Below are positions 22,201-58,500 of a stretch of 64,000 nt of DNA, one piece after another. The notes beneath the pieces are model-generated. The model was not told where the DNA came from and did not search any database. It saw only the letters and a list, made by a program, of their open reading frames with translations. The DNA is from Raillietiella orientalis (Eukaryota): positions 1,240,001-1,304,000 of the forward strand of contig JAYWIR010000046.1 of NCBI GenBank assembly GCA_036172245.1, written 5' to 3'. Positions within the stretch are counted from its first letter, which is position 1, and each line of letters starts with the position of its first letter. The position numbers were made by a program, and so were the translations under genes.

Positions 22201-25200
22201 GGATATTCGGATCGTGTTGACTTAAAAATGCCATTTTCTTGTTCTTTCTTATGCTTTCTTGAATGCAGTTTTTTCTAATTTTCTTGTATGCTTACATTCA
22301 ATTTCCAATATCATGTTTCGTAATATTGATTAGGCTTTTAGAGGTCTTGTTTACATACTTCATAAAATCACCAAATCACCATTTGTTTCCAACCTTCACG
22401 TCACCTTTTTTTATCTCATTCGTTCTGTTATTTTCATTCTTTTACCAGAAAACAAATTTGTATACACTGTCAGATTTCTTCATGATAAAGGATTTTGTTT
22501 TGGAGATTTTCTTTTTGTTTTCAGCGATTAAATTCCATTGCACTTGCTTCTTGCCTTCATTTCAAATTGCACAGTCATCTGTTTTTTCTACTTTGACTTG
22601 TTTCTTGTTTCTTCTCTTCTATGGGATTTTGAACCTGTGATCTCATTTCTTGAGTTCATTTCTATTGAATGCGCTATTTCTGGCAACCTGAAAAATTTCG
22701 ATTCTCATCGGGAAGAAATGGTATTGAAAAGTATCAGGGCAACATAAATTTCACAAGATATCATCACCGTAATAATTTCTAAAACATGTTGGATTCTTGT
22801 TATCAGTGACTGATTCTTAATGCAGACTGCGTCTCAATACAGTAACCAGGAACTAGCGCTCAAAATCATTTACTTCATTACTTTGCCTATGCTAGCATTT
22901 ATCCACAAGAACTGTTCTCAGTAATTTGCATTTAAAATTTACAATTTAGACATTGCACGGTCAGGCCAAACTATGTGCTCTAGTTCGAGTGCCTGTACTG
23001 ATTTGTAACTCTAGAACAACTAACATATTTTGTTTTTATTATCAATTGCAAAGAACTATTCCGAAGTATTATGAATTACGGCAAAACAAAGCATCGAATT
23101 TATAGAAGTTTGCTCGAATCAATGATACTGACATGCTGCGTCTCCGAGAGCATCCAAGCAAAATTTGATGAGGTTTTGCTAAACCCCAAAGACCGTTCGA
23201 TTCTGCGCAAGGGTCCTGAAGAACGAATACCATAATATGTATTATTCGAAATCTGAAAATATGTACTGGAAACGGCTTTGTGTCTACATCAAAGGATCAT
23301 ATGATTAAATTTCCTTTTTTTTTTTTTCATTTAATCATTGTGAAAGTGCTTTCAATACACAGTAGAGAAAATGCACTTTTTTTTCCAGAACACACGACAG
23401 ATATTTTATAGAAATCCGTTCTTTTTTGTAGAGGGAAAAGCGCTTCGGCTTCTCTGAGAAATTTCAAGTTCGCATGTTCACATGAAATGAGAAAAGTTGA
23501 TGAAATTATTGAAAGTAATTTTTGAAATTATGTCAGTGGAAACGTTATGGGGGAGGATTCCATTCGAACTGTGCATGTTAATCCACCTTTCTGTTTCAGA
23601 GCAAACATATCTCTCAAAACATAACAGCAGGAATCATCTTTAGCAATGCATCTCTGGTAATGCAAAAAGTCAGACGATCTCAAAGTGGACGATACAGATG
23701 TTCAGCAACCAACTCACTTGGAGTGGGAATAAGTAATGATTTGTTTTTAAAAATTAAATGTGAGTAAAAAAGGAAATGTTATGAGAAACGTCAGTCGCTC
23801 TGTGTATTTGAATGAGTGGAAGCGAGTGTGTGAAAGTTTCCATCTCTCTTTTCATTAATTGCACATCAGCGCTGTAGTCTGAATGTGTTCCCTGGTTGAT
23901 TTGCAACCAGGGAATAGCGACAAAGCCAAACATCTGCAGAAATCACGTCTTCATTTGTCGTGGAAAAACGAGTCAAGGAAACAAATGATTGTGCAAGAGA
24001 CTAGTTGAAGCTGAAACCGTCAAAGAAATTCTGGAACAGAGTACATGCACGAATCCACGTGTACGTGGTTTGACTTTTGAATACGAGATTTCTCAATTGA
24101 TATTCTCAGGAATCGGAGAATCTCTCCGGAAATAGACGACATGAATCCAAATCTCGAAATTTAATAGAGCCATTCTTCCCTCTCAAATTTCTCAACACTA
24201 TTATAAATTTTTGGATACTGCAGAAATACGACTTGGTGAATATTGTTGCATCAATCAGAGGCTTACACAACATTGAATGAATTGGATTGACAGTGAATTG
24301 GATTACTCATATAAATGAGTTCACGAGCGAAGTGCTAAAGAATTAAATAATCTGTGCCATGAATGAATGAAAAATTTTTTTTCCAATGTATTCGCAAAAA
24401 TAGATTGTTTTATATTTTTTTGTAAAAAAAATCAAATTTTTATTGTTTAACTTTCCGTTCACTCTATATCCTGTTTACTGCACGTACCTTTCTCGTTTAA
24501 TTTAGATGACACGAACAAATAACTAGGAGACAAACTACAAATAAGAGAATAATGACGTTGAAGATTTGAGCTCATTGGTGCATATACTTTGGACAAGGTC
24601 TTTAAGGTCCTTTAAGCTGCCACGCACTTCAAGCACTATAAAGAATTTCGTATTCTCGGAACAGCGTACTAATGCAGTATTAATTCTCGGAACAGGTATT
24701 AATGGAGAAAGCAATACAAGTAATTACATGAAACTGGATGCATCCTGTGAAAAAGGATTTGATGGAAATAACATTACAACGACATTTTGTGGATGACGGT
24801 GTTAAGTCTTTCGGAAAGAAAGTTTAAGAGGAAATAACGAAAAGTAAGCATCGCAGATACCTTCTGAGAAACGGTTATGCAAAAAAGACAAGATCTTCAA
24901 AGAATAAATAAGTGGAGAGAAGGAAGAAAGCGGAACTGTGATACACTTTGAATTTTTCTCTGGATTTTGTAAGGCATCCAGGAATGCCTTACTGCAAATA
25001 TGACAGATGTCATCCTTGTTCTGATGGCAAGCGGATGACAGTACTTTGTAAAAGATGGAGGGATTATGAGGGACGAATCCTGTTGAAGCATTTTTTTTTT
25101 TAAAAAAAAAACTTGTGCAGGATTTGAAAAGTTGAAATTGTCACAACGTCTCACGGAATATTCGAGAAATGAACAACTAGACGTCCAAAGTCGGAGGAAC

Positions 25201-27938
25201 ATATTTGTTTTTTTGTGAAAGGCTTTTGGGTTTTTATCTAAGTGCCCAACGCTTACAGGGAGAGATTTGTTAAAGATGAAAACTGGACGAAATTTCGAAA
25301 GTCAAAGCCCAAAAAACAAAAAAGACTGAAATCGAACAGAATGAAATTGTGCTGTGCATAAAAAATGTAGTTCAAAGAAAACGAAAAAAAAAAAAGATAC
25401 CCGTACTATTTGGTTACAATAGAAGCTCTTTGGATTCAAATCTATTTTAGAATCACACACAGTGACACTTTGAACACTGCTTTTTTACCAAAAATAGATC
25501 TTCCTAAAGTAGCAAGCAAATTCGAGAGTTGCTGATAGTTCTCCAACGACTTTGTTCATTTTTTGAATTCATATCCACTGTGATTGGTGGATCGCGTTTT
25601 GTATAGCTCTTAACATACTGTTTTGCTAGTTAAGTAAGCTGTAGCTGTTCTTATTCGAAGTGTAGCATTTTGGAACCTGCTAGAGCTTATCTGAGAAGCG
25701 ATCAATGTTTGCTGATTTGATTGAAAAGCCATCTATTCTATATACAAGGATAAAAAGGAATTTCTTTTAATTTGATACATCCCCTCCAAAGTTCACTCGA
25801 TCTAGAATCTCAAAGTAAATTGAACCAATCTTGTTTAGGTCTTCGTATTTCTAGTCAAACTCAAACTTGCTAGGGAAACCAGCCAAAAACAAAAAGGAAG
25901 GAAAGAAGAAAACAGGACATGAGTTTTGTTTTCGTTTGAGTTTTCTCGAATGTGATTAATAGATTATCTTATTAATAGAAGTTCCTTATTTGGATAAACG
26001 AGAAAGCAAGTATAGGTACTGATTGCCTCCAGATTAGAGCAACGGAAGGATATATGGTAAGGATAATTTTCAAAGAAAGAGACAAAGCATTATCTCTGAA
26101 ATAGAACTGTCAGTCGTGGAAACGCAAGTGAACTAAGCAAGGATTTTATGAATTTATGAATGGTTTGTAGACCACTTTTTTACATCAAATTAATAACTTT
26201 CAAGATCACAAGCTATTATGTGGAGTTCTACTGTCACCCCTAGCACTATGGAGACAGAATGGAAAAGAATTAAACAATTTTTTACTATGTCTCGAAGTCA
26301 AAGACGTATGTGGCCTGATAGAAGAGAAAAAAACTAATGCACTTTCTAGAGTTTTCCTTGAAAAATGCAAATCGAAGGTCCCAATGGTTGTAAATGAGTA
26401 AGACTTTAAAAACTTGGTGAGAACAATATTGCTTCATGAAGTAAAAAATGGTTAAGGCGTCTCTGAAGAACAGATAGGCAACCAAATAATCAGTTACTAG
26501 TATTCCTACAATAGAAAGCAGCTATGCATTCAGATAACACATTCCTACTGTCTTTTCAATGTATCACTTTTATAGCATTGCAAGTGATGCAAAAGCGGTG
26601 TAGAAGAAACGTGCGGAATGTGCAGTTTAACTCGAAACTAAGATAAGTCTGTACTAGCGGTTCAGGATTCTCTTGGAATTCTTACATATGCAGTCTTCTT
26701 AGAGTATCCACTAGGAAAGCTGGGGACCACGTGGCATCTATGGGCATGTACCACCCATGAAAGTAAATGTACTTGAAGATTGCTGCTACAATACCGTACT
26801 ATGATTGGATGACCTTTCGACAGTTTTTCAACAAGAGGGAGAAACTTAAAATTCCAATGTGCCAAATGTCTTTAAACAATTGCAAAAAATACCATTCGGA
26901 CAATAGTCCGAATGGTATTTTTGATGCAGAAGCATCTTTTTCTACGCCGCGCACACTTTTCGTTTGCAAATGACCCTCTGCATTATGGCGATCTTTTCCT
27001 TTGATGTCTCACTTTCTTCAAACATATGAATATATCACCTCCAAGACTGCTTATGTGGTTGCAAATTTTAGATGTGCCTTTTTGTAAATCAGAACAAAAA
27101 TTTGTGTATGGAGTTTCTAAAGACGAGGACGTCACCGTTTATTGTAAAGTAGACAGCTTCCCTCTTCCACAAAAATTTTTCTGGAAGCTGAATAACAGTC
27201 AGACAACTACTATTCTCCAGCATAGGAGGTTGAATAGTTCAGAAAATTTCCTCATCTACAGACCAAAGTCCATCCACGATTATGGAGCTATAATATGCTG
27301 GTCTGAGAACGAGATCGGCAAACAGAGGGTTCCCTGCGTCTACCACATCGTAGCTGCAGGTATTCAGTGACTCCTGTATCAGGGAGTTGTTGCAGGTTAT
27401 CTTAGGCCCTCCTAAGCCCGTGGAAAACTGCATCATTTCAAACCGCAGCTCTCAAATGTTAGCGATTATCTGCGAAGCAGCATTCGATGGTGGCTTTCCC
27501 GTTAGCTTCGAATTCATTCTAAGAGAAAACAAGAAGGGAGAAATTCTAAGAAACATGACTCGCGTCAAGCCTTTTGCAACCTTCTTAGATTTGGATGCCG
27601 AAAACGCTTACACGGTCGAGGTGTACGCTAGGAATACCAGAGGTGTGAGCAAGCAAACGCAGCTCTTTGTAGAACCCCTGAAACTGGGAGAGCTCAGGCA
27701 TTGTACAAGCACAAAACTGCTAATCCAGCATTATTGCATTTACTTTCAGCTATAAAAGAAGAAACAGATACTCAGACAGTGGTTATTGTAAGTTTCGTTA
27801 GTTCTGCAGCACTCATCTTGCTGGTGATGATTGTGTGCCTATACTTTAGAAAGTCATCAAAGAGGCGGAATTCGACGGACGGCGCTTCCCAACCCAATGA
27901 AACCAGCAAAAAACAATGGAACCAATCACGTGCTTCAG
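10182..27938 (+). CDS. Sidestep/nephrin-like Ig-superfamily transmembrane protein gene, partial multi-exon model (Ig2-Ig5, FN3, TM, start of cytoplasmic tail)
   Basis: Nine exons join with compatible phases into one stop-free protein. It carries motifs typical of arthropod Sidestep-family proteins: GPFNE..L.L.C, CKASNNN, C.S.GSRPSA.I.W, IKEGDDVFFDC.I.ANP, SN.SLV.Q.V.R..SG.Y.C.A.N..G.G.S, DYG.I.CWSENEIGKQ..PC.Y.I, then an FN3 domain and a hydrophobic helix. The paralogue cannot be named without a search. The 5' exons were not found. Confidence 0.9.
12650..13800 (+). mobile_element. Possible second BEL/Pao pol relic, inside an intron
   Basis: Remnants DAFFHMKI (~12883, compare DIxKAFxQI) and SITAYAA...LLLLRNKI (~13547-13637, compare DASxxAYAA...LLxAKxRV). 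Heavily disrupted. Confidence 0.25.
15280..15480 (+). CDS. Sidestep-like gene exon, second half of Ig2
   Basis: ttgcag acceptor and gtaagt donor, phase 1 to 1. Translates DYPVSRLSWWSRGEMLSSEYTRNGNFTQAEFLLRNLSRIHLHQKFLCKASNNNMTAAASSSVTLEMN. Not in the ORF track. Confidence 0.9.
15744..15901 (+). CDS. Sidestep-like gene exon, first half of Ig3 (3' end at 15901 or 15910)
   Basis: ttttag acceptor, phase 1. Translates LNPVNVSISNPRPFQVAGELATFECESYGSRPSANIIWILGDEKLTASQCKEE. Donor is gtatgt at 15902 (phase 0), or alternatively ATATCCTTT at 15911. Confidence 0.88.
16279..16414 (+). CDS. Sidestep-like gene exon, second half of Ig3 (5' boundary uncertain)
   Basis: Translates DNFTTSILSFVPTVADRKKILRCIAYTAALSFPLKLDDHLSLNMT, with a gtaagt donor at 16415 (phase 1). 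The only nearby AG is a weak AAG at 16276-16278, which is in frame. Confidence 0.8.
18724..18854 (+). CDS. Sidestep-like gene exon, first half of Ig4
   Basis: ttttcag acceptor and gtaagt donor, phase 1 to 0. Translates YPPLANITFGANLPFNNIKEGDDVFFDCNIEANPEQQKIEWFFN. Confidence 0.92.
23600..23759 (+). CDS. Sidestep-like gene exon, second half of Ig4
   Basis: tttcag acceptor and gtgagt donor, phase 0 to 1. Translates SKHISQNITAGIIFSNASLVMQKVRRSQSGRYRCSATNSLGVGISNDLFLKIK. Not in the ORF track. Confidence 0.92.
27072..27359 (+). CDS. Sidestep-like gene exon, Ig5
   Basis: ttttag acceptor and gtattc donor, phase 1 to 1. Translates YVPFCKSEQKFVYGVSKDEDVTVYCKVDSFP...DYGAIICWSENEIGKQRVPCVYHIVAA. Confidence 0.92.
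27406..27702 (+). CDS. Sidestep-like gene exon, fibronectin type III domain
   Basis: cttag acceptor after a 46-nt intron. Translates GPPKPVENCIISNRSSQMLAIICEAAFDGGFPVSFEF...FLDLDAENAYTVEVYARNTRGVS...; gtacaa donor at 27703 (phase 1). Confidence 0.88.
27750..27938 (+). CDS. Sidestep-like gene exon, transmembrane helix and juxtamembrane tail
   Basis: tttcag acceptor after a 47-nt intron. Hydrophobic VVIVSFVSSAALILLVMIVCLYF is followed by basic RKSSKRR. Donor ag|gtacat at 27939. Confidence 0.85.
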
Positions 27939-30900
27939 GTACATTTCCGCTATTGATTTTTCCCAACTTACTTCCCTACAGTCTAAATATGCTTCGTGAT
28001 TTAGACAAACGAGGAAGTCTCGCAATTTCAAAAGCACAGTACCTCGTAACAAAATCTGCCTTGAGACCTCATCAGACTTGATAGCGAAGGTTGCACAGTG
28101 CTTCTAGTGACCACGTTCCGATTACACGTAATTGAACTTCAGAGCAAATATTCTTTCATCAGGCTCTTTTGTTTTTGGTGAAGTACAGTTTGCTACGGAG
28201 GATACAGTCGAATGGATTAATTAGTCTTATATCAATACAGTCTTAAAGACTCGAGGAATTCGATGAGATTTTCATTTCAAATTGCAGTTTCAGAAAATTC
28301 CTTTAACATCTTTCATATCCTCTGAAGAACATTAAGAAAGAAAAAAATTGCCAAAAAGAAGTGTCTGGAGAAATTTTGCCGAAATTTTCTTGTTTGAAGA
28401 TTCTCTTCTCTGTGTAGCAACACGAAAATTCCCATTTCTATTCTTTGATTTGGAAGAATCCCCAAGACGACATAAAGGTTAACGACTGCATAAAAAGTTT
28501 CACAATTTTTGGAATTTCTGAGAGTATGCGACATTTTTGAGACAGGTTGTTTAATGGAAAACATGTAGGACCAAGAAAATATATTCTTTGCATCCTTCTG
28601 AATTAGAGAGAGTGTTTGTGAAGCAATGCTTGCATTCGCTCCTGTAAAAAAAATGCACGGCTTCTTGAAAAAAAAAAAATTTAGAGATTTGGCTGATGGC
28701 TGAACTCCTAAACCATGAAATTTTCCACATGGATTGCCTTCCAAATCGTTTCCAAATTGTAAACAAAAGCTTAAAAGTTTGTAGGCATCCTTTGAGAAAC
28801 ATCCATTATTTATTACCAACTATCAAGTGGTTAAATCACCATCTATAATTGAAAGTTTGATTGCACCCTTTCCAGACAGTAATGGCTTAAGGATAGTACT
28901 GACCCTAGCCCATTTTCAGATATTTAATTCAAAATTTCATTCTTTTTATAGCCTTTATTTGCTTGAAGACGTAAATGCTAATTTGAAGTTCATTTTATAC
29001 AACTGGTAAGGTTATGAATTTTTTTTCCTGTTTATTATGCATATGCTCCCTCTTTTAATGTCTCTAAACTGTTTGCCAGCCCGCTTTCTTCTCAAAAGAT
29101 ACAAATTTGTAAATCGGTTCAGAGAAGGGTCTAGTTAAAATGAAAATCTTCATTCCATACGCTATTCATTTGCCTCACTAATCGACAAAATTCTCCCTCC
29201 ATCATAAGTGGTCAATTTCTTAGCATATTTTGTAGCTCATTCCTTCACGGAAAAGTGGCGACCATTAGTGTTTTTCTTTGCACTGCATCTTGCATTCCCG
29301 GAAATGTTTCCTACAAATTTCTTGTTCGTGATGAAAAGACTAAGAGACAAATAACTGCTAGTGAAAGTGAGTTCAACAAGAGGAGAAAAAGACTTCTTAA
29401 AATGTCACAGAGGTTTATATTAATCGGCGTTTATCTTTGTACTTACGAATTTGGTTGCAGTTTGGTTGCTGTTTTACCGTGTGAAAAATGAATGAGAACA
29501 TTCTCCAAGGAGGAATATTGAGAAACTTTTGGAGCATCCACTATTAAAAGCAAACAGAAAATGTTTTCCAGTATCCAGATATGATCACATTCTTCAATCA
29601 GAAATACTAATGTGGATGCAAGTGAAATAATAGATGAAACGTGGGTTCTATGCTAAAGTAATGAAATCCCCGCTAAATTTCCCAAATCGAGAAGACGTTT
29701 GCACGAGAATAATTTGTTTTATTTGAAAGTCTCCAATTCAGTAAGCGAGTGTTCATCCAACAGCTCTATCGTAATCCAAGAGTTTTCTATTCAACAACAC
29801 ATCATTCTGTTGTTATCAGCAGCATTTGATATAGATCGAAATTATACAAAGCAGATTTGTTCTTTGTAAAAAAAAAAAAACAGACGCTTCCTTTTCCTTC
29901 AAATCCACATTTTGATCCTGCTCTTAAGACAGTTCAATGAAATTTACAGCGTCAGGAATTGTTTGTCAGTGAAACGCTTTACTTGACATGATATTATTAT
30001 CATTGAGAAAAAATCAACATTCCGTGTTTCCAAAGACAGCACTCAGATGAATGCCTATTATTCCTTGATAACTCTAACTGAAAGAAATGCAATCCAGAAA
30101 TCATTTCTTGTACATTTCATCAGCTGAAGATTGATGACTTGAAAATTCTCACGGCACTCTGAATTCAGATTCTTTCCCTTCCAGTCGTTTAAATGCATCA
30201 AATTGATCGAGATGTGGAATCCTTTCATATCTTGGAACCACCAAACAATTGATGTTCTGTTCTTAGATAACTCTTTACTTGCACATGGGCAAAGGAATTT
30301 TTTCCTGAAAACAAATGCACCCTAAAGTTGTTGACAGAAGAGAAAACTTATTTCGTGGAACAGATGATTAAGAGGGCTTTAAATTCATCACAAGAAATCT
30401 GGTACTGTCGAACACAAATTTGCAAATCGTAAACTGATGCGGATTGGTGTTAGATGTGGAATCAAATCTTGCGATATCCCTCTGATTTAGAGCTGGCCTT
30501 CGAAAATCCACCGCCCCTTCGCTGCAATTGCTAAGCAATTCTTTCTTTCTTTTCTTTTTTTCCCTGTTTTTTGATGGAATTACAAGGTTCCAATCAAAAT
30601 AGAGTTTCCGTGATCAGTCCCAATAATTGAATGAGATGATTCTGATCAGTTGGTGTCTGATCATTGTCTGAATATGATCAAAAACTCACTTCCATTGAAA
30701 CAGTCATCTAAAAAGGTATTCTACATTCAAACAAAAAACTTTAATTTGCAAAACACTAATTGCTGTCTGAAAATCTTTCCAACCCATTTGAGTCAATGTG
30801 GCACAGCATCCAACACCTCACCTTGGGTTTCCATTTTCACGATTCTGAGTTTCGTTTTTCCTGAAGTCATTGATTACGAAGGGAACTCCCATGCCCATTA

Positions 30901-37399: not shown

Positions 37400-38668
37400 G
37401 TAACTAGAATAGAAAATATTACATCTCAGTTATTCTGTTTAGCAAACTTTCTATGAGGAAACTTCGAAAACCAAAATGCATGTAAACCAAACCCAGAACT
37501 CTAGTTTCCCCTTAAGAAGATCTGTGGTCACTCGAGTTTAAACTACTTTTTTAGCAGCTACTCAGGTAATTTGTGCATACATCAATTAGACATCGAAAAG
37601 AGAGTATTTTCAAAACTTACACGATAGTCATCACTCAGTTCTTCTGCGAATTCTGAAATATGATGTAACAATCTCGTTGTGCGATAGCTGAGAATTTGAT
37701 AGATCACATCTATCCCATCAATTTATTTTCGCCGTGTTTTCCATGTCATTAAATACTAAATTAAATCGTTTTCAACATGCTGAGCTTCCATTTCCTGCAT
37801 TTGAATCCAGTGTGCATAGATTGGTATTGATACCAATAACCACATATCTCAAGTGGATGTCGTTATAGTCTTCGAGATTAGATAGCCAACGAGCACCAAA
37901 TGCCATGACTTTTCAAGTACATTAATAATGTATTTATGAAACCAACTTTGCCACATGAGAGGCAACCAGTTTTAAAAGCAAAGTTACGCTAATCCTAAAG
38001 ATGCAGAAGGAGACAATTTATGCTTAACAACAGTATCGTTTCATTTGTTAATATAATAACCGTCAATAAGAGACGAGGTGTCTGAGTTTTCCCAAGCCTT
38101 TTGAATCCTATTTCCAGTTTTCTTGCATACTTTTGCATCTCATCAGTGTGCCTACGTCCATGTTTGTTACTTTTCATTATATGATGTGAATTATTAGAAA
38201 CAGACAAACAGTTCACCAAAATATTCCAAACAATAATATTTGAATCACGAATATAGCTTTCTGCTGGACGCGATTTTATGTCCTACGCCCTAACTGTAGA
38301 GTCTTTTAAAAAGATAAGGAGAAAATGATTCAGTAATTCTATTTGTATTTTTCAAAATTGAAACTTCTGTTTTTTAAAAGAGTATGTAAGGAAAAATTTA
38401 ATAATCGATGTTACAAAAAGATGTTACTCTCTCTAAAAAAGCTAGAAAAAAAGGACCGATATCGTGATATTGTCGAATCCATCAGAAGAATCCATCTTCA
38501 GAAGTCTCAACGTGTTATTCTCCGTTATGCCCTCATTATATGGAGGCCTTCGAAGTAATGCAATAACAGAAAGACAAAATTTTCCTTGATTTTGGACATG
38601 TAGGTGAGAGAAGCCTAGTTTCAGCGAAAAAAGAACGTGTAGATTTTTTTTTCTTTTGAGTACATTTT

Positions 38669-38752
38669 TTTCCGTTTATGTAGCTATAATCAGTGATTGC
38701 TTAGACGGAAATCCGTCTAAGCAATCACTGATTATAGCTACATAAACGGAAA
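38669..38752. repeat. Perfect palindrome with 41-bp arms and a 2-nt spacer
   Basis: 38669-38709 (tttccgtttatgtagctataatcagtgattgcttagacgga) is the exact reverse complement of 38712-38752. Confidence 0.97.
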
Positions 38753-41700
38753 TGCATGTCCAGTTTCCAAGAAAGAGTTGCAGGAATAACAGAGCTGTTA
38801 GCAAATACTTCCGTGTACGTAACGGTTTGCTGCGAAATGAGTACCAGGGATCGCGCAGGAGTTTTCCTGTAAAATATTTTGCCATATTTGTCTGCTCAGT
38901 ATTCCCAAAAATTTACTGTTGAGCATGCGAATGTATTTCTGCGTCATATCTGTCAAGTATATTCTCCCGTGTAGATGAGATATGCCAAAAATAGGAATCC
39001 GTTCGAGCTTTCTGTATTTCTTGGAAATTCACAGAAGGATTGGAGTTATTATTTTAATGGAATTTCGTTCGAATTAAAACTTTTCTTACCTTCATCTTCA
39101 TTGGATAAATGTTCAAGGATGCTTTGCTTTTCATATTTGATTCGCATTCCATGGTTTCGAGAGTCTAAATAGATTATTGGGCTAAAGTGAAATTGCTTTC
39201 AAGCCCGAATGACCGTGGAGTACATGGGAGAAAGCTGTATTTTAAGTTCGGAATAATTAGTAAAGTGCCTTTCAGCTTATTTCAAGGACTTTAGAGGAAC
39301 AAATAGAATGATTTCCAAAAGCACATGTAAACAAAGAACAAAGAGAAAAGAAGGAAAAAAACGAAACAACGGAGTGTTTCGTGTGATATCAGCCACCAAA
39401 TCTCCCAAAGACTGAGCACCGGAAAGACAGTTACTGGAAATTCTGAATCTCGGATGCATCAAACCATCGCATCGATGGGCACCGGAAATGAACATGTCAG
39501 AAGCCAAGAAACTGATGTTTGTACAAGCACCAGCAAACGAATAAACAATAGGAGATAAAATCGAAATGAGGACATTGATCCCACCCATGCATCAGAGGCA
39601 CCAAATAAGATTTTTTTTTCAAGGTATCTGGTACAAGAAATAAAATTTTCAACCGCACTTACCTTCTAGATCTCACATTAGATTTTCACTTCTGCTGGTC
39701 GTATGACATGTGAATTTTAAATATCTCTTCTATTTATTTTCCAACTGGAGCTACAAAATCGTCCATTTTAAATCCTGACTTATACAGAGGCAGGAAAACC
39801 GTAACCTCAATAATTTAAAGTTCAAGGATGTGTAAGCTATTAATGGTAAATAATGCAAGTATCAAGCATGTATTACTGAAAAAAGAAAACCAGATTTCAA
39901 AATTTCTCGGAGATGAAGCTTGCAAAGTTGGAAGATAGAAGCTGATAAAACTGTACTTTGCATATCCTCGCTTTCCGAGGCTGCAGTTTTAAACTCTTTC
40001 TCAACTGTTTGCTGCGGCATAATAGGAATTTTCGATCAGCACAAAAAAATTTTCAAATAAAATTCTTTATTTTCTTTAATCACTTTACGGTTTCATTTGC
40101 TTAGATCCATGGCAAACTGAACCACCAAATTTTATGCATGTAAGTTGATGCTTATGATTCGGCCTCAATTAGGAAACTTCCAATAAAATACAAGAATCCC
40201 GTTCTGTTATCCCGATCAATCTGAGTTTAAAAAAACTTTATTTTGCATTGCTTGGTCCGTGATAAATCGTTGAAGAACTCGCCACTTTGAAGAATTCTTG
40301 GGGAGAGCAGAAATTCCCACTGCTTTGTTTTGTTTTTTCCGACCTCTACCACATCAAGAAATAGCTAGATGCTACAGATATCGATGCTGATTAACGGAGC
40401 ATGCCGGATTGAGTTCTTAGTCCAAAGTTAAAGAAAAGGTTTCTGCTTTCTCAAAGCTCAGAATTTGAAACAGCATCGTTTAGTAAAGAAATTATTTAAT
40501 ACACTCAACTTGAAGAATTAAATGATGTAAAAATCCTTGACTGCACCACTAAATTTCGTATCTGCTGCTCATTCAACATCATCACTACCAAGCATTTGCG
40601 AATTCGTCCTGAGTATTTCTCTGGATTTATTTTATAGTTGAAAGTTCAGAGCTTACATTTTTGTGCTCTGTCCAGCAAATGGTAACTGAGAAAAGATTCG
40701 AAGATAGAATGGTTTGATATGCGGATATCAAGTATAATAATGGCACCTGAACTTCAAAAAAGAAAATAAAATGAATTTTTATTTAGGAGGTATTTCTTAT
40801 GATTGAGCTGTATGGTAAAAGATACAGTATTCTAAATCAACTTATATTGGTTGGAATCCAACTGCATGTTGGATTCTTAAAGATTTAACGAAACTGCCAT
40901 GTCGAGAAGTTTTTTACTGACCAGAAAAACAATCAGAAAAAGCTCATTGAATAAATGCCAACTAACTAGTGGATTGATTGCAATAATGAAGTCATGCATA
41001 TAATAAATCTTCATGGTCTGTATTGTATTTTTTGAATTACTGTTTAGCATGCAAATTTTCGACTTTTTTTCTTGGACAACCGCAAATTACTATGAATTAT
41101 TGTGGATTGCCATGTTTTTGAAGTGATCAATGAAACAATCACTCAAAAATACGATAAAAACTTTTCAAGATCATCATGAACAAAAGCATCAACATCCACA
41201 GATCTAACAATTTAATCGCTGTTTAAAGAAAACTAGTGAATGAACATTTTTTAATAAACACGTAAATCCTTTAAATATCTGATACCCGTAAGATGGGTAA
41301 TTCTGGATTCATACTCGGAGTTATGCAATCACCACGACAAAACCTTTTAAAGCTTGCAATGAAAAATTAGTGATTGTAAGATTGAAAAACACGTGAGTCT
41401 TTCTTAAATTACTCAGATGTCACGCGGCGTTTAGGATGACCTTCCATTTGAACGTGATGACTTTTATCCCATATTGTCTTCTATTAATTATCTTCTATTC
41501 CATATTGTCTTCTATCTTTGCTCAGTGCAGCTAAGAAACATGGAAAGATTCCAGCACACGTAGATAGAGGTAAAGAGAAACACCGATTTTTCGTGTGACT
41601 CACTTCGTGCAAACACTGATTTGCAGTTTTGTCAAATTGCAATTGTAAGCGGAAGGAGAATGGAAGTATCTGAAAAGGAAGAGGAGCTTGTCTCTAGAGA

Positions 41701-51038: not shown

Positions 51039-52739
51039 CTACTGGATGCAAACACCAATGCCCGTTTGCGCAATTAGCAGGCATATCTTGTTTCATGTCT
51101 GGTTAATAATCGTGTGTTCTACAAGGAGGAGACTCAATTTACATGAAGTAGTGACGAACATTGTTCTAAATTCGGAATTAGAAGAGAGAACGGTTGCTGT
51201 AATTCAAAACGGTATGTAACAAAAATAGGAGTGAAATTGCTAGCGAATCGAATTTCGTTTCTTCAGACTCACTTTCGAACTCGAAAAACAAAGATGATGC
51301 CGGAAAAGACCAACAAGAATGTCAAGTGTCGAGAATGCAGCACTTACACTTTAGTTTACTAAAGGACTTACCATCCATTGCTAATCTTGATACACTGCAG
51401 CGTAGTTTCGTTCAAGCAATAAATAAATGCTTTGCAGCATTCAGGACTCATGAACCCAGAAAATTCTTGTCTCATTGAAAAATAATGGCTTTTCAAATGA
51501 TAATTCATCCTTCTTTTCATTCTTTATGTGAGGCAGAACCATTATGAAGACTCATAACCATAGCAAACCATTGCAGATTCGCTTACAGTGCTTGCTCCGA
51601 TAGCATTCCACATATCAAAACTTCAGCAAACCTTTCTCTTGGTTTAATAATCATATTTGCACATTCATATTGATAAACACTCTTTGAGACATTGCATCAC
51701 ATTAAATTACATCAATAAACAAGTCAGTTTCTCTGGTTTCCTTCAAACAAGGAAGAAAAATGATTATTTTGTATATAATAATTGAGTGCTCTAGGAGCGT
51801 GCTTCATTGGAATCGACTTGAGTTGGCATTCAAAAGTGATCGGACCTGGGTTTCTCTTGAAATAAAATTTCCAGATGTGGGAATTGGAGTTGACTAAATC
51901 AGTCATCTTCAATTTGCTTCACGAAAGAAAAAAAGATGGATAAAAACACTGAGTAATGCTTTGATTTAATTATCTTGGTCTTGCACTCAGACGCTAAATT
52001 TTTCTCCTTCGATTAATCTCCATTAGGAAACAAAAATGAGTAATGTGACTGAGGAAAGTTTCACCAAGCCAGAGAACAATTCATGTAAGCAAGAAACTGT
52101 AAATGAAACCGTTGCTATTGACCAATGATCGATACTATCAGAAGGGAACATTTAGATGGTGAAAATTAAATTTCTTAGTGTGCATATGGTTTTATCTCTC
52201 CAGCTGCTTTATGTTTTTTCGGATCTCACATCCATAATTTGAGCTCTGGGGACTTCCAGCCAAATGTTTGACAAACGGCTACGCCTCACAGCATCTGAAA
52301 GCCTAGAATCTTATTTGATATTGGAATGCAAACACTATAAGCCGCCTTATGCTAACAACGAATCTGTCATTTGTACAAACAGAACACTACAACATGAAAA
52401 CGAATTCTCCTGAGTACAAAGAGTTGATTTCTATGAACAGCAGCCTCCTTGATGCAAATTGCGCTGGTACTGCAAATAGTTCTAGATTGCTAATTTGTTT
52501 CCAGAAAAGCACATAATTCACGAGAGAATAGCAATTGCCACAGTGTTTTTTTTTTAAAAGAAAAAAAAAGAAAGAAAGAAATGTACAGGTTCAAGTGCCC
52601 AGTTTGTTTCATGTTTCCTTTTGCATTAAAATTTGTCACTTCGTTCATATTCGGAAACAACCTGAAACTTTGATTCTTTTCAGCACGGTGAAACCGTCAC
52701 TTCTAGGTACCAAATTAAACCGGATGTAATAGAAAAATA

Positions 52740-53620
52740 ACTCTTTCTGTTCCTCACCCGGTGCGCCGGGGCGTTTATTTCTAAATTATCCAGAAACAGA
52801 GTTCCCGAACAAAGGACACAGAAGAAACGAAGGGGAGGATCCCAATACGCAGGTCGGTAAACCGAAAGTCCGGAACGGGAGGGAGGGAACCACAAATACA
52901 GATATTAAAAATGCAAATAAAGATATGGGGAGGGGAGGGGACAGGGGTCTTTGGTTTGGCCGTTCCTCTCCTTCAGAACCGGCTATGGATGCCGGTGATC
53001 TCGCTCCTAACGTCCTCTGGAAGATGGGTCCACTCGGCAGCTGACGCTATGTTCACACCGGCTATTCCGGTGGCCTGACAGCGAATCGCCAATTTCTCCA
53101 GCTCTCGGTGGGCCCTGTCGATGGTGCGGGTGCAACAGACCGTTGCGATGACAGCACCTAAGGACAGGCCGCCTGGCATGAAGAAGCGGCGCATCAAGTC
53201 TCTTGCGGTGTCCCCCTGGTGCAGGAGAGCTGAGGCCAGTCTCTGCCACAGTCCTTGGAGGACACCGCAGTCCAAGAGCAGGTGCGGGAGCGTTTCCACG
53301 TCTCCGCACCGTTTACAGTTAGGGGAGACAACTCCCCCGGAAACATGGTTCGTCCGCTAGTTGGAGTGAAAACCCCAATGCATCAGCATGATGACGTCCT
53401 GTTTCCAGCTCAAAGGAAACACAGAAGTGTTCGAGCAGGAGGAAAGGACCACAAGTTCTTCGGGGGGCACACTCGAATATTCGCTCCACCGAAGGAGTCC
53501 CTTCACAATGTTGAGAGGCGTGGCGGCGTCTGCCAGCTTGCAAGTCCTCCAGCCGCCTATGGGTCGGGCTGCTCCTGCGATGGTGCAGGCGACCTCCCAC
53601 CCCGCCGGTAGGCAGCTGTC
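52740..53620 (-). mobile_element. 5'-truncated non-LTR retrotransposon: ORF2 C-terminus with CCHC zinc-binding motif plus 3' UTR
   Basis: Sharp GC-rich island. The minus frame reads SPNCKRCGDVETLPHLLLDCGVLQGLW, the zf-RVT-type motif of L1/Tx1-like elements. There is one in-frame TAG at 53357-53359 and a stop at 52973. AATAAA lies on the minus strand at 52774-52779, followed by a CCCGG-CGCA-CCGGG stem-loop. Confidence 0.8.
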
Positions 53621-55168
53621 ATCACTCTTGCTGTATTGATAGAAGTGGACGCATGAAATGTAGATGCAAACCACAGGCCTATGAAATGAAATCCAGGATC
53701 TCAAATCTTCCAAAATGGTGATTCACAGTCTTCGAGAATGATTTGAGAAAGATGGAACTATTTACTGAGCAGCACCTTTTGCATTCATAGTATCTCATCT
53801 TTGTACTACAGACGAAATTTCAATTCTAATCAAGATTAATATAGTCAGTTGTGTCGTGTGCGAAATATGACGAGCATTTCAAACACAACAGATTTTCAGT
53901 TCATTTTTAGGAATTCATAGAGAATATATTAGATAGGAAACTTCTAATTTGCTCATTTATATGAAATTAAACAAATTACATGTTCTGTGACTCTTAAGCT
54001 AACATCATAGGTTATTCGTGGGACAGAGTAATACAGAATTTGAACAACACTCCAAGGTAAGTAAAATGGAAATTTTAACTCGTCTCTTTCAAGTTCTGTG
54101 AAAAAGTAATTCTTTTTTTTTACGTTTGTTTTCTTGAAAGATAAGGATCAGTGTGATGGAAAGGATGGATTAATTCAGAAAGCTACACACCACTGCATTT
54201 CTGCAGCCGATGCATGTTATGCATTTGGTGATTTTTTCTAGAAAAAGATGAATTTTGCTTGGAAAGAATGGTCGGGTTTCTGAGACTATAAATGAGACTA
54301 GGCAATCGTACCTTACGAAAGTACGTACAAAAATGAACCACATTGTGATTTGAAACTGCCTCTTGTACGTTAAGTGAGAGAAAACCACGAGTGAACGTTT
54401 AGGATGTATTGAAGAAAGCTATGGATAATGCCATCCTTTAAATTTAAGCAGAGCTCAAAGGAAAAGGTTACTCTGCTCAAAATTCCTGCTAAAGGGCTGC
54501 AAAACACTTTTAACATCAGTTCATTTAATTTGTTTTTTCAAAAAAAAAAACACTCGGTATTAGGAATTTAAGAAATTGTTCTGAATTTTCAGGGACGATG
54601 TTTTAAAAAAACAAAGCACCCGCACTTGTATGCATTAGCACTTGTAGGTACTTTTCCCAAATCTCTTTTTTACTCGCAGATGAAGGCTTCGTAAAAGCAA
54701 ACATTTGTTAGAGGAAAGGCAGAGATCAAAGTTTAGTTGAAAAAAAGCCAGCTTGTTGAATAAAAATTAGTTTTCTTGAAGGCATCTTGAGTTTTGAATG
54801 GATAGAAGCATGCAAATAAAGACTGTTGAAGATATGAATCCAGAGGTCTCATTTGGGTATAACAAACTATTTATGAGCTGGTATGGAAGAGCTCTCATCG
54901 TACATCTCAGTATGTGGAATTGTTTTAAGGTTCAGATTGGGAAGATTGAGAATTTGGACTTTCAATCTAACTTCCAAAAAATTAGGTAAGCAGAAGAATA
55001 TCACTCCTCATGCAGTCTGCATGCCAACGATTTCATAAAACCGGTAAGGTCAACAAGTTCAAATGCTCCAAGCAAGTCCCCGGTGAAAAAGTATCATGCT
55101 AGACAGAACTTACATTTGGTGTGGTGAATCTTAAGAACTGCAAAAAACCAGGTTGCATCTTGATGTTT

Positions 55169-55442
55169 TAATGAATGAATCCCTCAACTAACTTTTTCAT
55201 GTACACGTGTTCCTGTATAGTCTGCAATAGGATAATATGCTAAATGTATACACAAACTTATTTCTCATAGAATATTAATCTTGTAGCAATAATACAAATT
55301 CTGAATACATATTGCTACAGGATAAATATTCTATAAGAAATAAGTTTATGGATACTCTTAGCATATTATCCTATTGCGGACTATACAGGAACAATCATGC
55401 ACACGTGTACATGAAAAGGTTAGTTGAGGGATTCATTCATTA
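55169..55442. repeat. Long imperfect inverted repeat (about 120-bp arms, 18-nt loop)
   Basis: Left arm 55169-55291 pairs with right arm 55310-55442, with a few mismatches and a 10-nt extra segment near 55391-55400. The loop at 55292-55309 is ATACAAATTCTGAATACA. Confidence 0.95.
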
Positions 55443-55453
55443 CATTCATTCAT

Positions 55454-55527
55454 TATAACATAGTCAAATCGCTTAACCATTTGTATTCAGAATTTGTATA
55501 ATGGTTAAGCGGTTTGACTATATTATA
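55454..55527. repeat. Inverted repeat (28-bp arms, 18-nt loop)
   Basis: 55454-55481 pairs with 55500-55527 with 2 mismatches. The loop at 55482-55499 is TGTATTCAGAATTTGTAT. Confidence 0.95.
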
Positions 55528-58500
55528 GTATGAAATGCGGTTTTATCGTTTAATATGGATTTTGAATTTTATAAGTACATGATACTGTAATCCTATAAGT
55601 TCTATGAATATACTTTTGATAAATTACTAAACATTCGGTTATGATAAATATCTAAAATACTCATATTTATTTAGCGTGTATAAAGTATAAATATTAATGA
55701 CAAATGTGCATAGGAATTTTATAATTTATACTGAATTCATAACAGTTATATTGCATAACGACTTGTGCGTGTTATGTAAAGTCTTTCAAGTGATGTTACA
55801 TGTCCATTTAAGAATAATTTTCCTTCATGAAATATTTACATTTCATTTATACTCGATATCCTTATGTATAATTCGATATAGAAATTGTATTGATGTAGAA
55901 TCTATATTGGGGGATGGAGGTTTCCATTTTTTGTTCAATGAATGTAGTGTTTAATGACATATATAATTACATAAGTTTATGTACAAGTAGGTATTATGCA
56001 TTAGCCCGAATATAATTTCCGAAAATGAAATGAAAAAAATTGCATTTTATTGATTTTAAAGTCGAGAATAATGATGAGAGTAATTTTCAAGTTTGCATTC
56101 AAATTAAGAGTACTATAATTCAAATAAAGTACTATAGGTGCTAATTTGAAGGCGTTTATATTCTCATATATATGCATTCACATTAAGAGTATCTGAGTAC
56201 TTTATTCTATACATTATTTGTAGAAAAATACTCTTATCTAATTTGCACTCGAAACATTAAAAAGAACTTAGTTATGTTTTCACCTTTCCCCAATGCATTT
56301 TGAATCACATGTTATGTGATTCAATTCATAGAAAACACAAATAAATACATACAATCTTAGTCTTACATGCTCAGTACATACTGAGGATTTAGTATTATTC
56401 GTGATATTCCTCTTTAAAATGACATATTGCAAGGGACATACATTACATTAAACAAATGCGATTCAAGTAAAGATTAAGTTTTTATGTTCATTCAATTCGA
56501 TATTAGAGAAAGTCCATTTTAACTAAGGGTCTAAATCTAAAAACATGACAATTTGTGAATGTCCAAATTTCCTTCTTCTTGAGTGTCGATTTATTATATG
56601 AGAGTACTAAAATCCTTTCTATCTATATTTATCTGAAATGGATACTTACAAAAATAGTCAACTTCTTAACTCATGATGAAGCTTGCTCTTCAAAATCGAG
56701 TGATCCCAATGTGCATGGAAGTTGGCAAAGATTTTCGAGTTCCCTTTTGATGCGCTAAAGTTCTTGAGCGCTTTCGTAACGAGAGAATGGGCAGGCAGTT
56801 CTTTCTTATGTCTCTAGACATACAAGGTAATTGAGGAAAATATTTTCCAAAGATTCAACGGAAACTCACTCACTTTAAATGTACGAATGTGATTGGTCGT
56901 ATTTTAGTCAATTTGATGAGATAACACTCTGACTTGGTGTCTGCGTTTGAGCTCTGGATCCTTCTCAATGGGAATGATAGAAACAGAGATCGCAGCTTGG
57001 GTATTTGATCCAGAGTTAATGATGGGATCCTCGTAACCATGTTTTAAAGTTGTGCTATGGAAAAATTCATGAAATTTAAAAGCGAGATATCAAAGCAGAA
57101 GCAAGATGGAACAGCATATGAGAATGTATTGCAGAAGTGAAATATTGAACTCTTGGAATACCGTTTGTTTAATTCTCAAAAATGGATTCTCTCAACGGAT
57201 GTTGATATCTTTGAAGTTTGTGATCATTTGACCAACAAACTAGCTCTTCCTTTAGGTGTCTTAATTCCCAAGGGAGCAGACATGTTCTCATCTTTTTGAA
57301 ATTTCATGTCTGCTATTTGTTGTGGATGAAAAGGTTTGAGACGAAGAAACGATTTTAACGAAAAGAATAATTCATGAAGGATCATGTGCTGAAATTTATT
57401 GGCAAACTGTTGATTAATACAAAGAAAAATGATTAGCATAAGTAGATTCTAAGCATGGTTTATCTTATACTCCTCTTCCAAGAAACAACTGGAAAACTTT
57501 CATTGCATGGTGGCTCAGTTGAGCTGCATGTCAACGAAACTGTGCTGTGAAACTCAAACGAGTAAGAAAGTTGCTTCTGTGACGAAAGGCATTTACAGAA
57601 GAGATCCATTATAAAAAGAGAATCATTAGATATCACCTGTATCAAGATTGTAGCAAACTTTTCATTACATTGCAACCAAAAGGAGGAGGTTAGGATTAAT
57701 GCCAGTCAATTCTAATGTGCATCAAAACATTGAAAAAAAGAGAAGCAGACTACTGAGGAATAGTAGTAGGAGAGAAATTTATCCGTATAAATTAGAAAAT
57801 ACAGCATTAGATAATAACAAGTACTCACAACCTTCCTCTGCGGTAATTGGTTAAAAACGAGTTCATATGAAGGGAGATCTGGCCAAATTGAGAGCAGGAA
57901 GAATGCAAACATGATTTTGCATTGTACAGTTCCTTGAAGCCAAGTATTAGCTAATGGTGCGGGAAATGGTAATCCTACTTGTATGATTTTCGAAATAGAT
58001 TATGGGAAATACTGCACTCTAAGCATATGCTACAGTCTCTTTCCATTTTCAGCTTCCAGGAAACCGTGTCAATAAGGCATTTGCTTCTATGATGTTTTGA
58101 TAGAAAGAAAAGTCCCATGTTTCTCTTTCTTGAACTTTTGAAGTGCTCTCTTGGACTCAGTTTCGTTTTAAATACTGACTGTACTATACGAGCTGTTCTA
58201 ATATTTTGTTTGTTGTTTTCTCTCACTGATAAGATTTCAAAGTGAGAGCTGCAGGAATACCCAAATCTACTGGAAGTGTTGAAAAACAAGAATCTTAAAC
58301 AGCACTATGCCTCTAGTTGAATGCCCTCCAGATTGTTGAAGTTCAGAAAAATTCCATTAAGCTATTAGCTGAGAAGTGCATACGAACGAGAATGCAGATA
58401 AAAAAAACGTGAAGTTGGTGTTTCTTTTGGCAACGTCAGAGTGTATTTCGAGATCACGGTTGTTTACAATCGATGTCGGTTACTTAAGCAAACATTCTGA

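What the first reader, a model, noticed from the sequence alone, without database searches (positions are those of the whole stretch)
55169..55527. Two adjacent hairpins with unrelated stems share an identical 18-nt loop in flip/flop orientation
Seen: hairpin 1 (about 120-bp arms) has loop ATACAAATTCTGAATACA. Hairpin 2 (28-bp arms, starting 12 nt later) has loop TGTATTCAGAATTTGTAT, the exact reverse complement. The stems show no evident similarity to each other and carry mismatches, yet the loops are identical. This is the opposite of a normal MITE, where termini are conserved and the spacer drifts. A duplicated ATTCATTCATTA sits at the junction (55431-55442 and 55444-55455). Inference: the 18-mer may be a recognition or nicking site that repeatedly seeds fold-back copying of adjacent DNA. 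Alternatives are a flip/flop hairpin end or origin from an integrated linear DNA virus or plasmid-like element, or a conserved processing loop of a hairpin-RNA family.
Basis: partly seen in the sequence, partly recalled or inferred. Interest (0 to 1): 0.8.

Follow-up and report, generated by a model that had tools for sequence, protein, structure and literature searches.

The report
Twin fold-back scar sharing one loop
Two neighbouring DNA hairpins in a non-coding stretch of an animal genome share their 18-base loop because both most likely came from one old break-repair or copying accident, not because the loop is a special recognition site.

Summary
Hairpin 1 has arms 55169-55291 and 55310-55442. 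Hairpin 2 has arms 55454-55481 and 55500-55527. Their 18-nt centres are exact reverse complements and occur nowhere else in the window.

The block 55163-55527 has a compact description. It reads t-p-L | p'-t'-q'-L' | q-t. The inner 190 nt are the reverse complement of a circular permutation of the outer 167 nt: 156 matches, 11 mismatches, two indels. An 8-mer (t) occurs at both ends and once inverted in the middle.

Both hairpins have about 7% arm divergence, so they are the same age. At that divergence, 18 of 18 identical loop bases has P about 0.29. The mismatches give no sign of selection on an RNA: 4 are G:U-compatible on each strand.

One event reproduces the architecture, including the opposite loop orientation: a break between two inverted copies of L, snap-back copying at both ends, and annealing at t.

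I found no other copy, no viral or transposase gene and no RNA-family match. Elsewhere, 72 occurrences of the 18-mer never sit at a palindrome centre.

No whole genome was available, so recurrence in this genome is untested. Verdict: a neutral rearrangement scar of modest interest.

The parts
55163..55170 (+). t (left): 8-mer ATGTTTTA, the first copy of the terminal direct repeat
   Evidence: Pairs 7 of 8 with the inverted middle copy at 55454-55461 (I6, 37). Background frequency of a match of 7 of 8 or better is 42 of 63,992 window positions.
55171..55291 (+). p: outer (left) arm of hairpin 1, 121 nt
   Evidence: Positions up to 55228 are reproduced without any difference by one short-read contig of run X1.
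55292..55309 (+). L: 18-nt centre of hairpin 1
55310..55453 (+). p': inner arm of hairpin 1, the reverse complement of p. It carries a 10-nt insertion (about 55391-55400) and a 13-nt tandem duplication (55431-55443 / 55444-55456).
   Evidence: The 10-nt insertion extends a local 8-nt palindrome (ACACGTGT) to an 18-nt near-palindrome (read).
55454..55461 (+). t': inverted middle copy of the 8-mer (TATAACAT). It pairs with both terminal copies and is shared by the two hairpins.
   Evidence: 7 of 8 and 7 of 8.
55462..55481 (+). q': inner arm of hairpin 2, 20 nt
55482..55499 (+). L': 18-nt centre of hairpin 2, the exact reverse complement of L
55500..55519 (+). q: outer (right) arm of hairpin 2, 20 nt
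55520..55527 (+). t (right): 8-mer ATATTATA, the second copy of the terminal direct repeat

Best explanation
The block is the scar of one old, complex inverted duplication. It was made by fold-back (snap-back) DNA synthesis during break repair or replication, and it has decayed neutrally since. It has no dedicated function.

Shown:
- The block reads t-p-L | p'-t'-q'-L' | q-t. The inner 190 nt are the reverse complement of a circular permutation of the outer 167 nt.
- The two loops are therefore two copies of one sequence.
- The two stems are the left and right flanks of that sequence.
- Both hairpins have the same divergence.

Inferred, the most explicit path (M1):
1. The ancestral locus was t-p-[L..L']-q-t. 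It held a short palindrome, or the two inverted ends of an element that has since been lost.
2. A break between L and L' left two 3' tails that both ended in L.
3. Each tail folded back and copied its own flank, giving p'-t' on one side and q-t on the other.
4. The two new ends annealed through the 8-nt repeat t and were filled in.

A replicative route gives the same product and is counted in the same class: three template switches on a single-copy p-L-q, or one turn around a small circle or dumbbell.

Today the block is simply a cruciform- or hairpin-prone stretch. If it is transcribed it would give hairpin RNA, but nothing shows that this is used.
For: -: inner 55310-55499 aligns end to end with the reverse complement of [L + q-t + p]. 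There are 156 matches, 11 mismatches and only two indels. The 8-mer t is present three times (7 of 8, 7 of 8, 6 of 8), against a background of 6.6e-4 per position.
- a simulation of M1 from the outer pieces reproduces the observed 491-nt stretch with 458 matches, 10 mismatches and 23 gap columns (the two known indels). It gives one L and one L' as observed. A staggered break in a single-copy L gives two loops in the same orientation and does not fit.
- arm divergence is 9 of 123 in hairpin 1 and 2 of 28 in hairpin 2, both about 7%, so the two are the same age. Of the 11 mismatches, 8 are transitions and 3 are transversions, which looks like evolutionary decay and not read error. Wobble-compatible mismatches are 4 on each strand, so there is no RNA-level selection.
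- P(18 of 18 identical) is about 0.29 at this divergence.
- next to the loops the stems of the two hairpins agree at 5 of 8 positions. This is expected if L..L' was the core of a slightly longer imperfect palindrome (P about 0.06 by binomial, my calculation).
- Both indels lie in the inner copy and both are templated: one direct duplication and one that extends a local palindrome.
- The mechanisms are documented. Template switches create hairpins and invert loops (PMC8794818, passages). Snap-back synthesis followed by microhomology annealing occurs at Drosophila breaks (PMC2943611, passages). Self-complementary 'dogbone' circles arise from template switching at short inverted repeats (PMC10766183, passages).
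- A second palindrome (38662-38759) in the same window shows that such events occur in this genome.
Against: - There is no microhomology at the two fold-back points. The last bases of L cannot pair next to the end of p or q (read). The priming step is therefore unexplained in every version of the model.
- Snap-back tracts reported for synthesis-dependent end joining are much shorter than 129 nt (describes short insertions).
- The ancestral state (a single L, an L-L' palindrome, or element ends) is not observed. No outgroup, second haplotype or whole genome was available.
- Whether the 18-mer recurs elsewhere in this genome is untested.
- The 5 of 8 agreement next to the loops is not significant on its own.
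Confidence: 0.55

Rival explanations
1. Two adjacent members, or one composite member, of a dispersed palindromic repeat family (MITE or foldback-like element) whose conserved centre is the 18-mer.
For: Whole-length palindromic miniature elements exist in animals (my knowledge, not tested here). Both hairpins begin and end with TA. The organism's genome could not be searched.
Against: - There is no other copy of arms or loop in the 64-kb window.
- Only 1 of 13,397,869 contigs of run X1 was laid on 55000-55700 at 80% likeness or better, and that one is the locus itself. The run is of low depth, so this evidence is weak.
- Independent insertions would not explain the shared 8-mer t' or the circular-permutation relation.
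- There is no target-site duplication around either hairpin.
- No transposase was found in the window.
Confidence: 0.12
2. A functional hairpin-RNA locus: hairpin 2 as a microRNA-like precursor and hairpin 1 as a long hairpin siRNA source.
For: - Hairpin 2 folds as a 92-nt RNA stem-loop at -40.0 kcal/mol (+ strand) and -35.8 kcal/mol (- strand), z about -10 to -11.
- Template-switch hairpins are a proposed source of new microRNAs (10.1101/2023.04.19.537475, listing and abstract start only).
Against: - The Rfam matches are far below threshold: MIR8675 at 32.7 against 90.8 bits and mir-3118 at 30.7 against 89 bits.
- Stem mismatches show no strand bias, with 4 G:U-compatible on each strand.
- On one transcript the two loops would be reverse complements of each other, not the same loop.
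Confidence: 0.07
3. One reading: the 18-mer is a site-specific nicking or recognition site (for example a transposon end or an endonuclease site) that recurrently triggers fold-back copying of whatever lies beside it.
For: The break in model M1 falls exactly between two inverted copies of the 18-mer, which a site-specific cut would explain. It cannot be tested in the organism's own genome.
Against: - The two copies seen here are accounted for by a single event.
- There is no further copy in the window.
- None of 72 occurrences in other organisms lies at a palindrome centre: at most 10 of 20 flanking bases are complementary, against 18 and 19 of 20 here.
Confidence: 0.06
4. Assembly or library artefact: a chimeric palindromic read, an amplification chimera, or an adapter at a palindrome centre.
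For: - Palindromic chimeras with a fixed centre in either orientation are a known artefact class (my knowledge).
- From memory only, the junction of loop and right arm of hairpin 1 resembles the insert-proximal end of a common nanopore ligation adapter. This was not tested because no adapter list was available. My one literature search for it found nothing usable.
Against: - The arms differ by 11 substitutions, 8 of them transitions, and by only two templated indels. That is unlike read error and unlike a fresh chimera.
- An independent short-read contig reproduces 55033-55228, which includes two arm-mismatch positions, with 0 differences. The run may come from the same sample.
- In a template-complement chimera, p' would be followed by the reverse complement of the left flank, not by q'.
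- Hairpin 2 lacks the adapter-like bases.
- 28-nt arms are too short for a read chimera.
Confidence: 0.06
5. Integrated remnant of a hairpin-ended linear replicon (parvovirus-, poxvirus- or plasmid-like) with flip and flop termini.
For: Formally the block is one full turn of a self-complementary single-stranded circle, that is a closed linear duplex of about 150 bp with a loop at each end, the two loops being inverse complements.
Against: - No replicase, capsid or other viral family was found among 145 open frames of 75 aa or more in the window.
- The exact arm 19- and 20-mers are absent from IMG/VR, and the one viral 18-mer hit is not palindromic.
- There is no match in the phage collection.
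- There is no coding body between the 'termini'.
- In known flip/flop systems the stems are the same and only the asymmetric tip inverts (my knowledge).
Confidence: 0.03

Closest known systems
Template-switch mutations that create hairpins and invert loops (Loytynoja & Goldman 2017; Monttinen & Loytynoja 2022, PMC8794818)
   Same: Reverse-complement copies of adjacent sequence made in one event give near-perfect stems that later decay. Loop inversion is a documented outcome.
   Different: The four-point model has two junctions and usually involves tens of bases. This block needs three junctions and tracts of 129 and 28 nt. It produces two hairpins at once.
Snap-back synthesis-dependent microhomology-mediated end joining at Drosophila double-strand breaks (Yu & McVey 2010, PMC2943611)
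   Same: A 3' end folds back and copies its own strand. [quoted passage not shown] The block shows an 8-nt junction microhomology and templated direct and inverted indels.
   Different: The reported insertions are short. Here both ends would have snapped back, over 129 and 28 nt. No primer repeat is visible at the fold-back points.
ODIRA 'dogbone' intermediate and inverted triplication (Brewer lab, PMC10766183; PMC4689423 seen in listing only)
   Same: A self-complementary single-stranded circle with two loops has the same topology as this block opened in one stem.
   Different: ODIRA gives three copies with the same arms and different loops at kilobase scale, and it needs a replication origin. 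Here the flanks do not continue the pattern. The arms differ and the loops are the same. The unit is 167 nt.
Foldback inversions formed through single-stranded DNA hairpins at resected breaks in yeast (PMC7467729; abstract start in the search listing only)
   Same: A hairpin forms at a resected 3' end, and synthesis then gives an inverted duplication with an unpaired spacer as the loop.
   Different: The yeast events use short inverted repeats to prime and give large chromosomal rearrangements. Here the event is local, two-sided and without visible priming repeats.
Bacterial REP/BIME hairpin doublets (earlier scan note e1-3235185)
   Same: Twin hairpins with unrelated stems whose loops are reverse complements. 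That note reports loop inversion within the family.
   Different: That case is a dispersed, multi-copy bacterial repeat family. Here there is a single eukaryotic locus with no other copy found. I did not test that note.

Membership tests
Single four-point template-switch mutation | The derived sequence is explained by one excursion to the opposite strand (two junctions) | tested here: not met
   The decomposition needs three junctions: L|p', t'|q' and L'|q.
Single four-point template-switch mutation | Ancestral state known from an outgroup or parent sequence | not testable with these tools
   No genome or relative is held. One low-depth run covers only 55033-55228.
Snap-back end joining (SD-MMEJ-like) | Inverted repeat spanning the junction, with microhomology where the two ends meet | tested here: met
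   The 8-mer t' is shared by both hairpins at 7 of 8 with each terminal copy. The simulation reproduces the block.
Snap-back end joining (SD-MMEJ-like) | Short primer repeat at the fold-back point | tested here: not met
   No complementarity exists between the 3' end of L and the bases next to p or q (read).
ODIRA inverted triplication | Three copies, the middle one inverted, so that the flanks continue the repeat | tested here: not met
   The flanks show no significant similarity to the block. Between 138 and 480 of 500 shuffles reached the observed scores in the eight comparisons.
MITE / foldback transposon | Multiple dispersed copies | tested here: inconclusive
   No copy in the window and none among the contigs of one low-depth run. 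The full genome is not available.
MITE / foldback transposon | Target-site duplication flanking terminal inverted repeats | tested here: not met
   Neither hairpin has a direct repeat at its edges. The 8-mer pair flanks the whole block, and the ends of the block are not inverted repeats of each other.
Flip/flop hairpin telomere of a linear virus or plasmid | Hairpins at the ends of a replicon that carries replication genes | tested here: not met
   There is no sequence between the hairpins. None of the 145 window open frames matched a viral or replication family. No viral DNA match was found.
microRNA / hairpin-RNA gene | Match to a curated family, or evidence of processing or expression | tested here: inconclusive
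   The Rfam hits score about a third of the gathering score. No RNA run is listed. Expression could not be tested.
microRNA / hairpin-RNA gene | Stem substitutions biased towards pairs tolerated on the transcribed strand | tested here: not met
   There are 4 T:G mismatches and 4 A:C mismatches, so the strands are symmetric.

The most novel reading that the evidence does not exclude
The 18-mer pair marks a site-specific break point, such as the two ends of an unrecognised DNA transposon or the target of a nuclease. Cutting there repeatedly provokes two-sided fold-back copying, so the genome would hold many palindromes with different arms and this same centre in either orientation. That would be a new route by which a mobile element or nuclease manufactures hairpins.
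Probability: 0.07. Interest if true: 0.65.

Novelty: new member of a known kind. Interest (0 to 1): 0.3.

Why it matters
It is a clean natural example of a two-sided fold-back repair or template-switch event, and its product can be read base by base. It shows that 'identical loops, unrelated stems' can arise from a single accident and need not mean selection on the loop. That is a useful caution for scans that look for conserved hairpin loops.

Such scars are also raw material for new hairpin RNAs and are potential fragile sites. If the 18-mer proved to be recurrent in this genome, the finding would become considerably more interesting.

Tried and rejected
- Whole-genome search for the 18-mer: not possible, because no genome is held.
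- Sequencing runs: one DNA run (X1) was listed, holding 0.36 of the sampled words, and no RNA holder was listed. When laid at 80% likeness or better it gave one 196-nt contig (55033-55228). Nothing covered the rest of the block. A part without cover proves nothing.
- Collection scans with the 18-mer: 1 viral and 71 metagenome loci, all chance-like and none at a palindrome centre. These are other organisms, so they do not test this genome.
- Exact arm 20-mer and 19-mer in IMG/VR: 0 hits each. Phage collection blastn: no match.
- Rfam: only sub-threshold microRNA-like hits. tRNA scan: none.
- Periodic or concatemer extension into the flanks (satellite array, ODIRA triplication): rejected, because the flanks are not similar to the block.
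- Staggered break in a single-copy L with two snap-backs: rejected, because it gives both loops in the same orientation. It would need a later loop inversion.
- Tandem duplication plus simple inversion: worked through by hand, and no pair of breakpoints gives the observed order.
- hAT-like element with an 8-bp target duplication: rejected, because the ends inside the 8-mers are not inverted repeats.
- Sequencing-adapter origin: considered from memory only. A literature search for an adapter list found nothing usable. I rejected it on topology and substitution pattern, not by direct comparison.
- Earlier-findings look-ups: nothing was found for this genome. One sequence hit was spurious. One bacterial analogy was found.

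Full report
**Context**

The window is AT-rich (35-46% G+C) and has few long open frames.
- It holds immunoglobulin and fibronectin-III type exons at about 18.5-28 kb on the + strand.
- It holds a G+C-rich block with a weak reverse-transcriptase zinc-finger match at 52.9-53.4 kb.
- The best Atlas cluster for one exon is mostly arthropod, which is a weak pointer to the host lineage.
- No whole genome is held for the window.
- The finding lies in non-coding DNA. No tRNA, no protein family and no curated RNA family above threshold lies within kilobases of it.

**The observation**

- Hairpin 1 has arms 55169-55291 and 55310-55442 around the 18-nt centre L (55292-55309).
- Hairpin 2 has 28-nt arms 55454-55481 and 55500-55527 around L' (55482-55499), the exact reverse complement of L.
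- The 18-mer occurs only at these two places in 64 kb, even with 3 mismatches allowed. None of 100 shuffles gave two matches.
- The repeated ATTCATTCATTA is a 13-nt tandem duplication.
- As single-stranded DNA the stretch folds into two abutting hairpins at -134.2 kcal/mol, z = -30.
- The stems are not significantly alike.
- The exceptions are 5 of 8 positions directly beside the loops, seen as the 34-nt, 82% inverted repeat, and an 18-nt stretch at the junction between the hairpins.

**What the junction shows**

The palindrome of hairpin 1 does not stop at 55442. Through the second copy of the tandem duplication, 55163-55180 pairs with 55444-55461 at 17 of 18 positions (I6). The last 8 nt of that pairing (55454-55461, t') are also the first 8 nt of the left arm of hairpin 2.

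I name the pieces t (55163-70), p, L, p', t', q', L', q and t (55520-27). The block then reads t-p-L | p'-t'-q'-L' | q-t.

One search tested this directly.
- The inner 190 nt (55310-55499) align end to end with the reverse complement of the circular permutation [L + q-t + p] of the outer 167 nt.
- The alignment has 156 matches, 11 mismatches and just two indels, the 13-nt duplication and a 10-nt insertion at about 55391-55400.
- The middle 8-mer matches each terminal 8-mer at 7 of 8. The background frequency of such a match is 42 in 63,992 positions.

The block is therefore one local 167-nt unit, bounded by an 8-bp direct repeat, plus one complete inverted and circularly permuted copy of itself. 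An equivalent description is one turn, plus 8 nt, around a self-complementary single-stranded circle. This single description accounts for the identical loops, their opposite orientation, the unrelated stems and the abutment of the hairpins.

**Age and selection**

- Arm divergence is 9 of 123 in hairpin 1 and 2 of 28 in hairpin 2, both about 7%. The two palindromes are therefore equally old.
- At 6.6% divergence the chance that two 18-nt copies are still identical is about 0.29. The contrast 'stems carry mismatches, yet the loops are identical' is not evidence of constraint.
- The 11 mismatches are 8 transitions and 3 transversions.
- Four mismatches are T:G on the + strand and four are A:C, which would be G:T on the - strand. 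Neither strand has been kept foldable as RNA.
- The substitution pattern also argues that the block is real and old, not a read chimera.
- One short-read contig of run X1 reproduces 55033-55228, including two arm-mismatch positions, without a difference. That run may come from the same sample.

**Mechanism**

I worked through the possible histories.
- A staggered break in a single-copy L followed by snap-back at both ends gives both loops in the same orientation. The simulation produced two L and no L'.
- A tandem duplication plus an inversion cannot give the observed order (worked by hand).
- The flanks do not continue the pattern. Between 138 and 480 of 500 shuffles reached the observed scores in eight comparisons. 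This excludes an ODIRA-type inverted triplication and a local satellite array.

The following path does reproduce the block.
1. The ancestor was t-p-[L..L']-q-t, with a break between the two inverted copies of L.
2. Both 3' tails then end in L.
3. Each tail folds back and copies its own flank, giving p'-t' on one side and q-t on the other.
4. The new ends are complementary through t and anneal.

Simulating this from the outer pieces gave 458 matches, 10 mismatches and 23 gap columns against the observed 491 nt, with one L and one L'. The inverted L pair could have been a short palindrome broken at its centre. The window has another palindrome, with 48-nt arms at 94%, at 38662-38759. Alternatively it could have been the two ends of an element lost by abortive gap repair.

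The 5 of 8 agreement beside the loops fits a somewhat longer, imperfect ancestral palindrome, but it is not significant alone (about 0.06). A replicative route gives the same product, and I cannot separate the two. That route is three template switches on a single-copy p-L-q, or one turn on a small circle closed at the 8-bp repeat.

Both indels lie in the inner copy and both are templated. One is a direct duplication. The other extends the local palindrome ACACGTGT to an 18-nt near-palindrome. This fits low-fidelity repair synthesis, although the indels may be later events.

The weak point of every version is that no microhomology is visible at the two fold-back points.

**Literature**

From passages read:
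- Template switching creates perfect stems and can invert loops, including the MIR633 loop (PMC8794818).
- Snap-back synthesis followed by microhomology annealing explains inverted-repeat junctions at Drosophila breaks (PMC2943611).
- Template switching at short inverted repeats can expel a self-complementary single-stranded 'dogbone' circle (PMC10766183).
- Small extrachromosomal circles are associated with direct repeats at their ends (PMC9578701).

Yeast foldback inversions (PMC7467729) and de novo microRNAs from template switching (10.1101/2023.04.19.537475) I saw only as listings with abstract starts. I did not search for, and make no claim about, whether this exact two-sided architecture is in print.

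**Rivals**

- Dispersed palindromic repeat family. The window has no other copy. At 80% likeness or better, only the locus itself was laid among 13.4 million contigs of one low-depth run. The shared 8-mer would also be unexplained. The full genome was not searched.
This remains possible only because the genome could not be searched. The 72 occurrences of the 18-mer in viral and metagenome contigs have at most 10 of 20 complementary flanking bases, against 18 and 19 of 20 here. Those are other organisms.
- Hairpin-ended virus or plasmid. No viral gene was found and no viral DNA match.
- Functional hairpin RNA. There is no family match and no strand bias. Expression could not be tested.
- Artefact. 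This is unlikely on substitution pattern and topology. From memory, a few bases at the loop-arm junction of hairpin 1 resemble the end of a nanopore adapter. I could not test this, so an adapter screen is listed as a next step.

**Verdict**

The best reading is a single, old, neutral fold-back rearrangement scar (confidence 0.55). It is a new instance of a known kind of mutation, with an unusually legible two-sided architecture. Interest is modest (0.3). It would rise if the 18-mer proves to recur at palindrome centres or as element ends in the complete genome.

Noticed in passing
window 38662-38759: A second, unrelated palindrome: 48-nt arms at 94% complementarity with a 2-nt spacer. The inner 40 nt of the arms are perfect, so it looks younger than the block studied here.
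   Followed up: partly
window 55391-55400: A 10-nt insertion, present only in the inner arm of hairpin 1, extends a local 8-nt palindrome (ACACGTGT) to an 18-nt near-palindrome. It looks like a small templated (snap-back type) insertion.
   Followed up: partly
window 52700-53720: A G+C-rich block with long overlapping open frames on both strands and a weak match to the zinc-binding tail of reverse transcriptases (E 0.0059, below cut-off). It is probably a fragment of a non-LTR retrotransposon, about 1.5 kb upstream of the hairpins.
   Followed up: partly
window 18540-28078, + strand: Exon-like open frames with immunoglobulin-domain matches below cut-off and fibronectin-III-like features, followed by a transmembrane-like segment. 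This is probably a cell-adhesion receptor gene of an animal, possibly an arthropod.
   Followed up: partly
window 54782-54803 and 55155-55176: A 22-nt direct repeat at 82% identity. Its second copy spans the left boundary of the block (flank plus the first 8-mer). The blastn E-value was 3.9, so it may be chance.
   Followed up: no
window 1-4000: This segment is markedly richer in G+C (46%) than the rest of the window (35-41%) and is dense in overlapping open frames with no family match.
   Followed up: no
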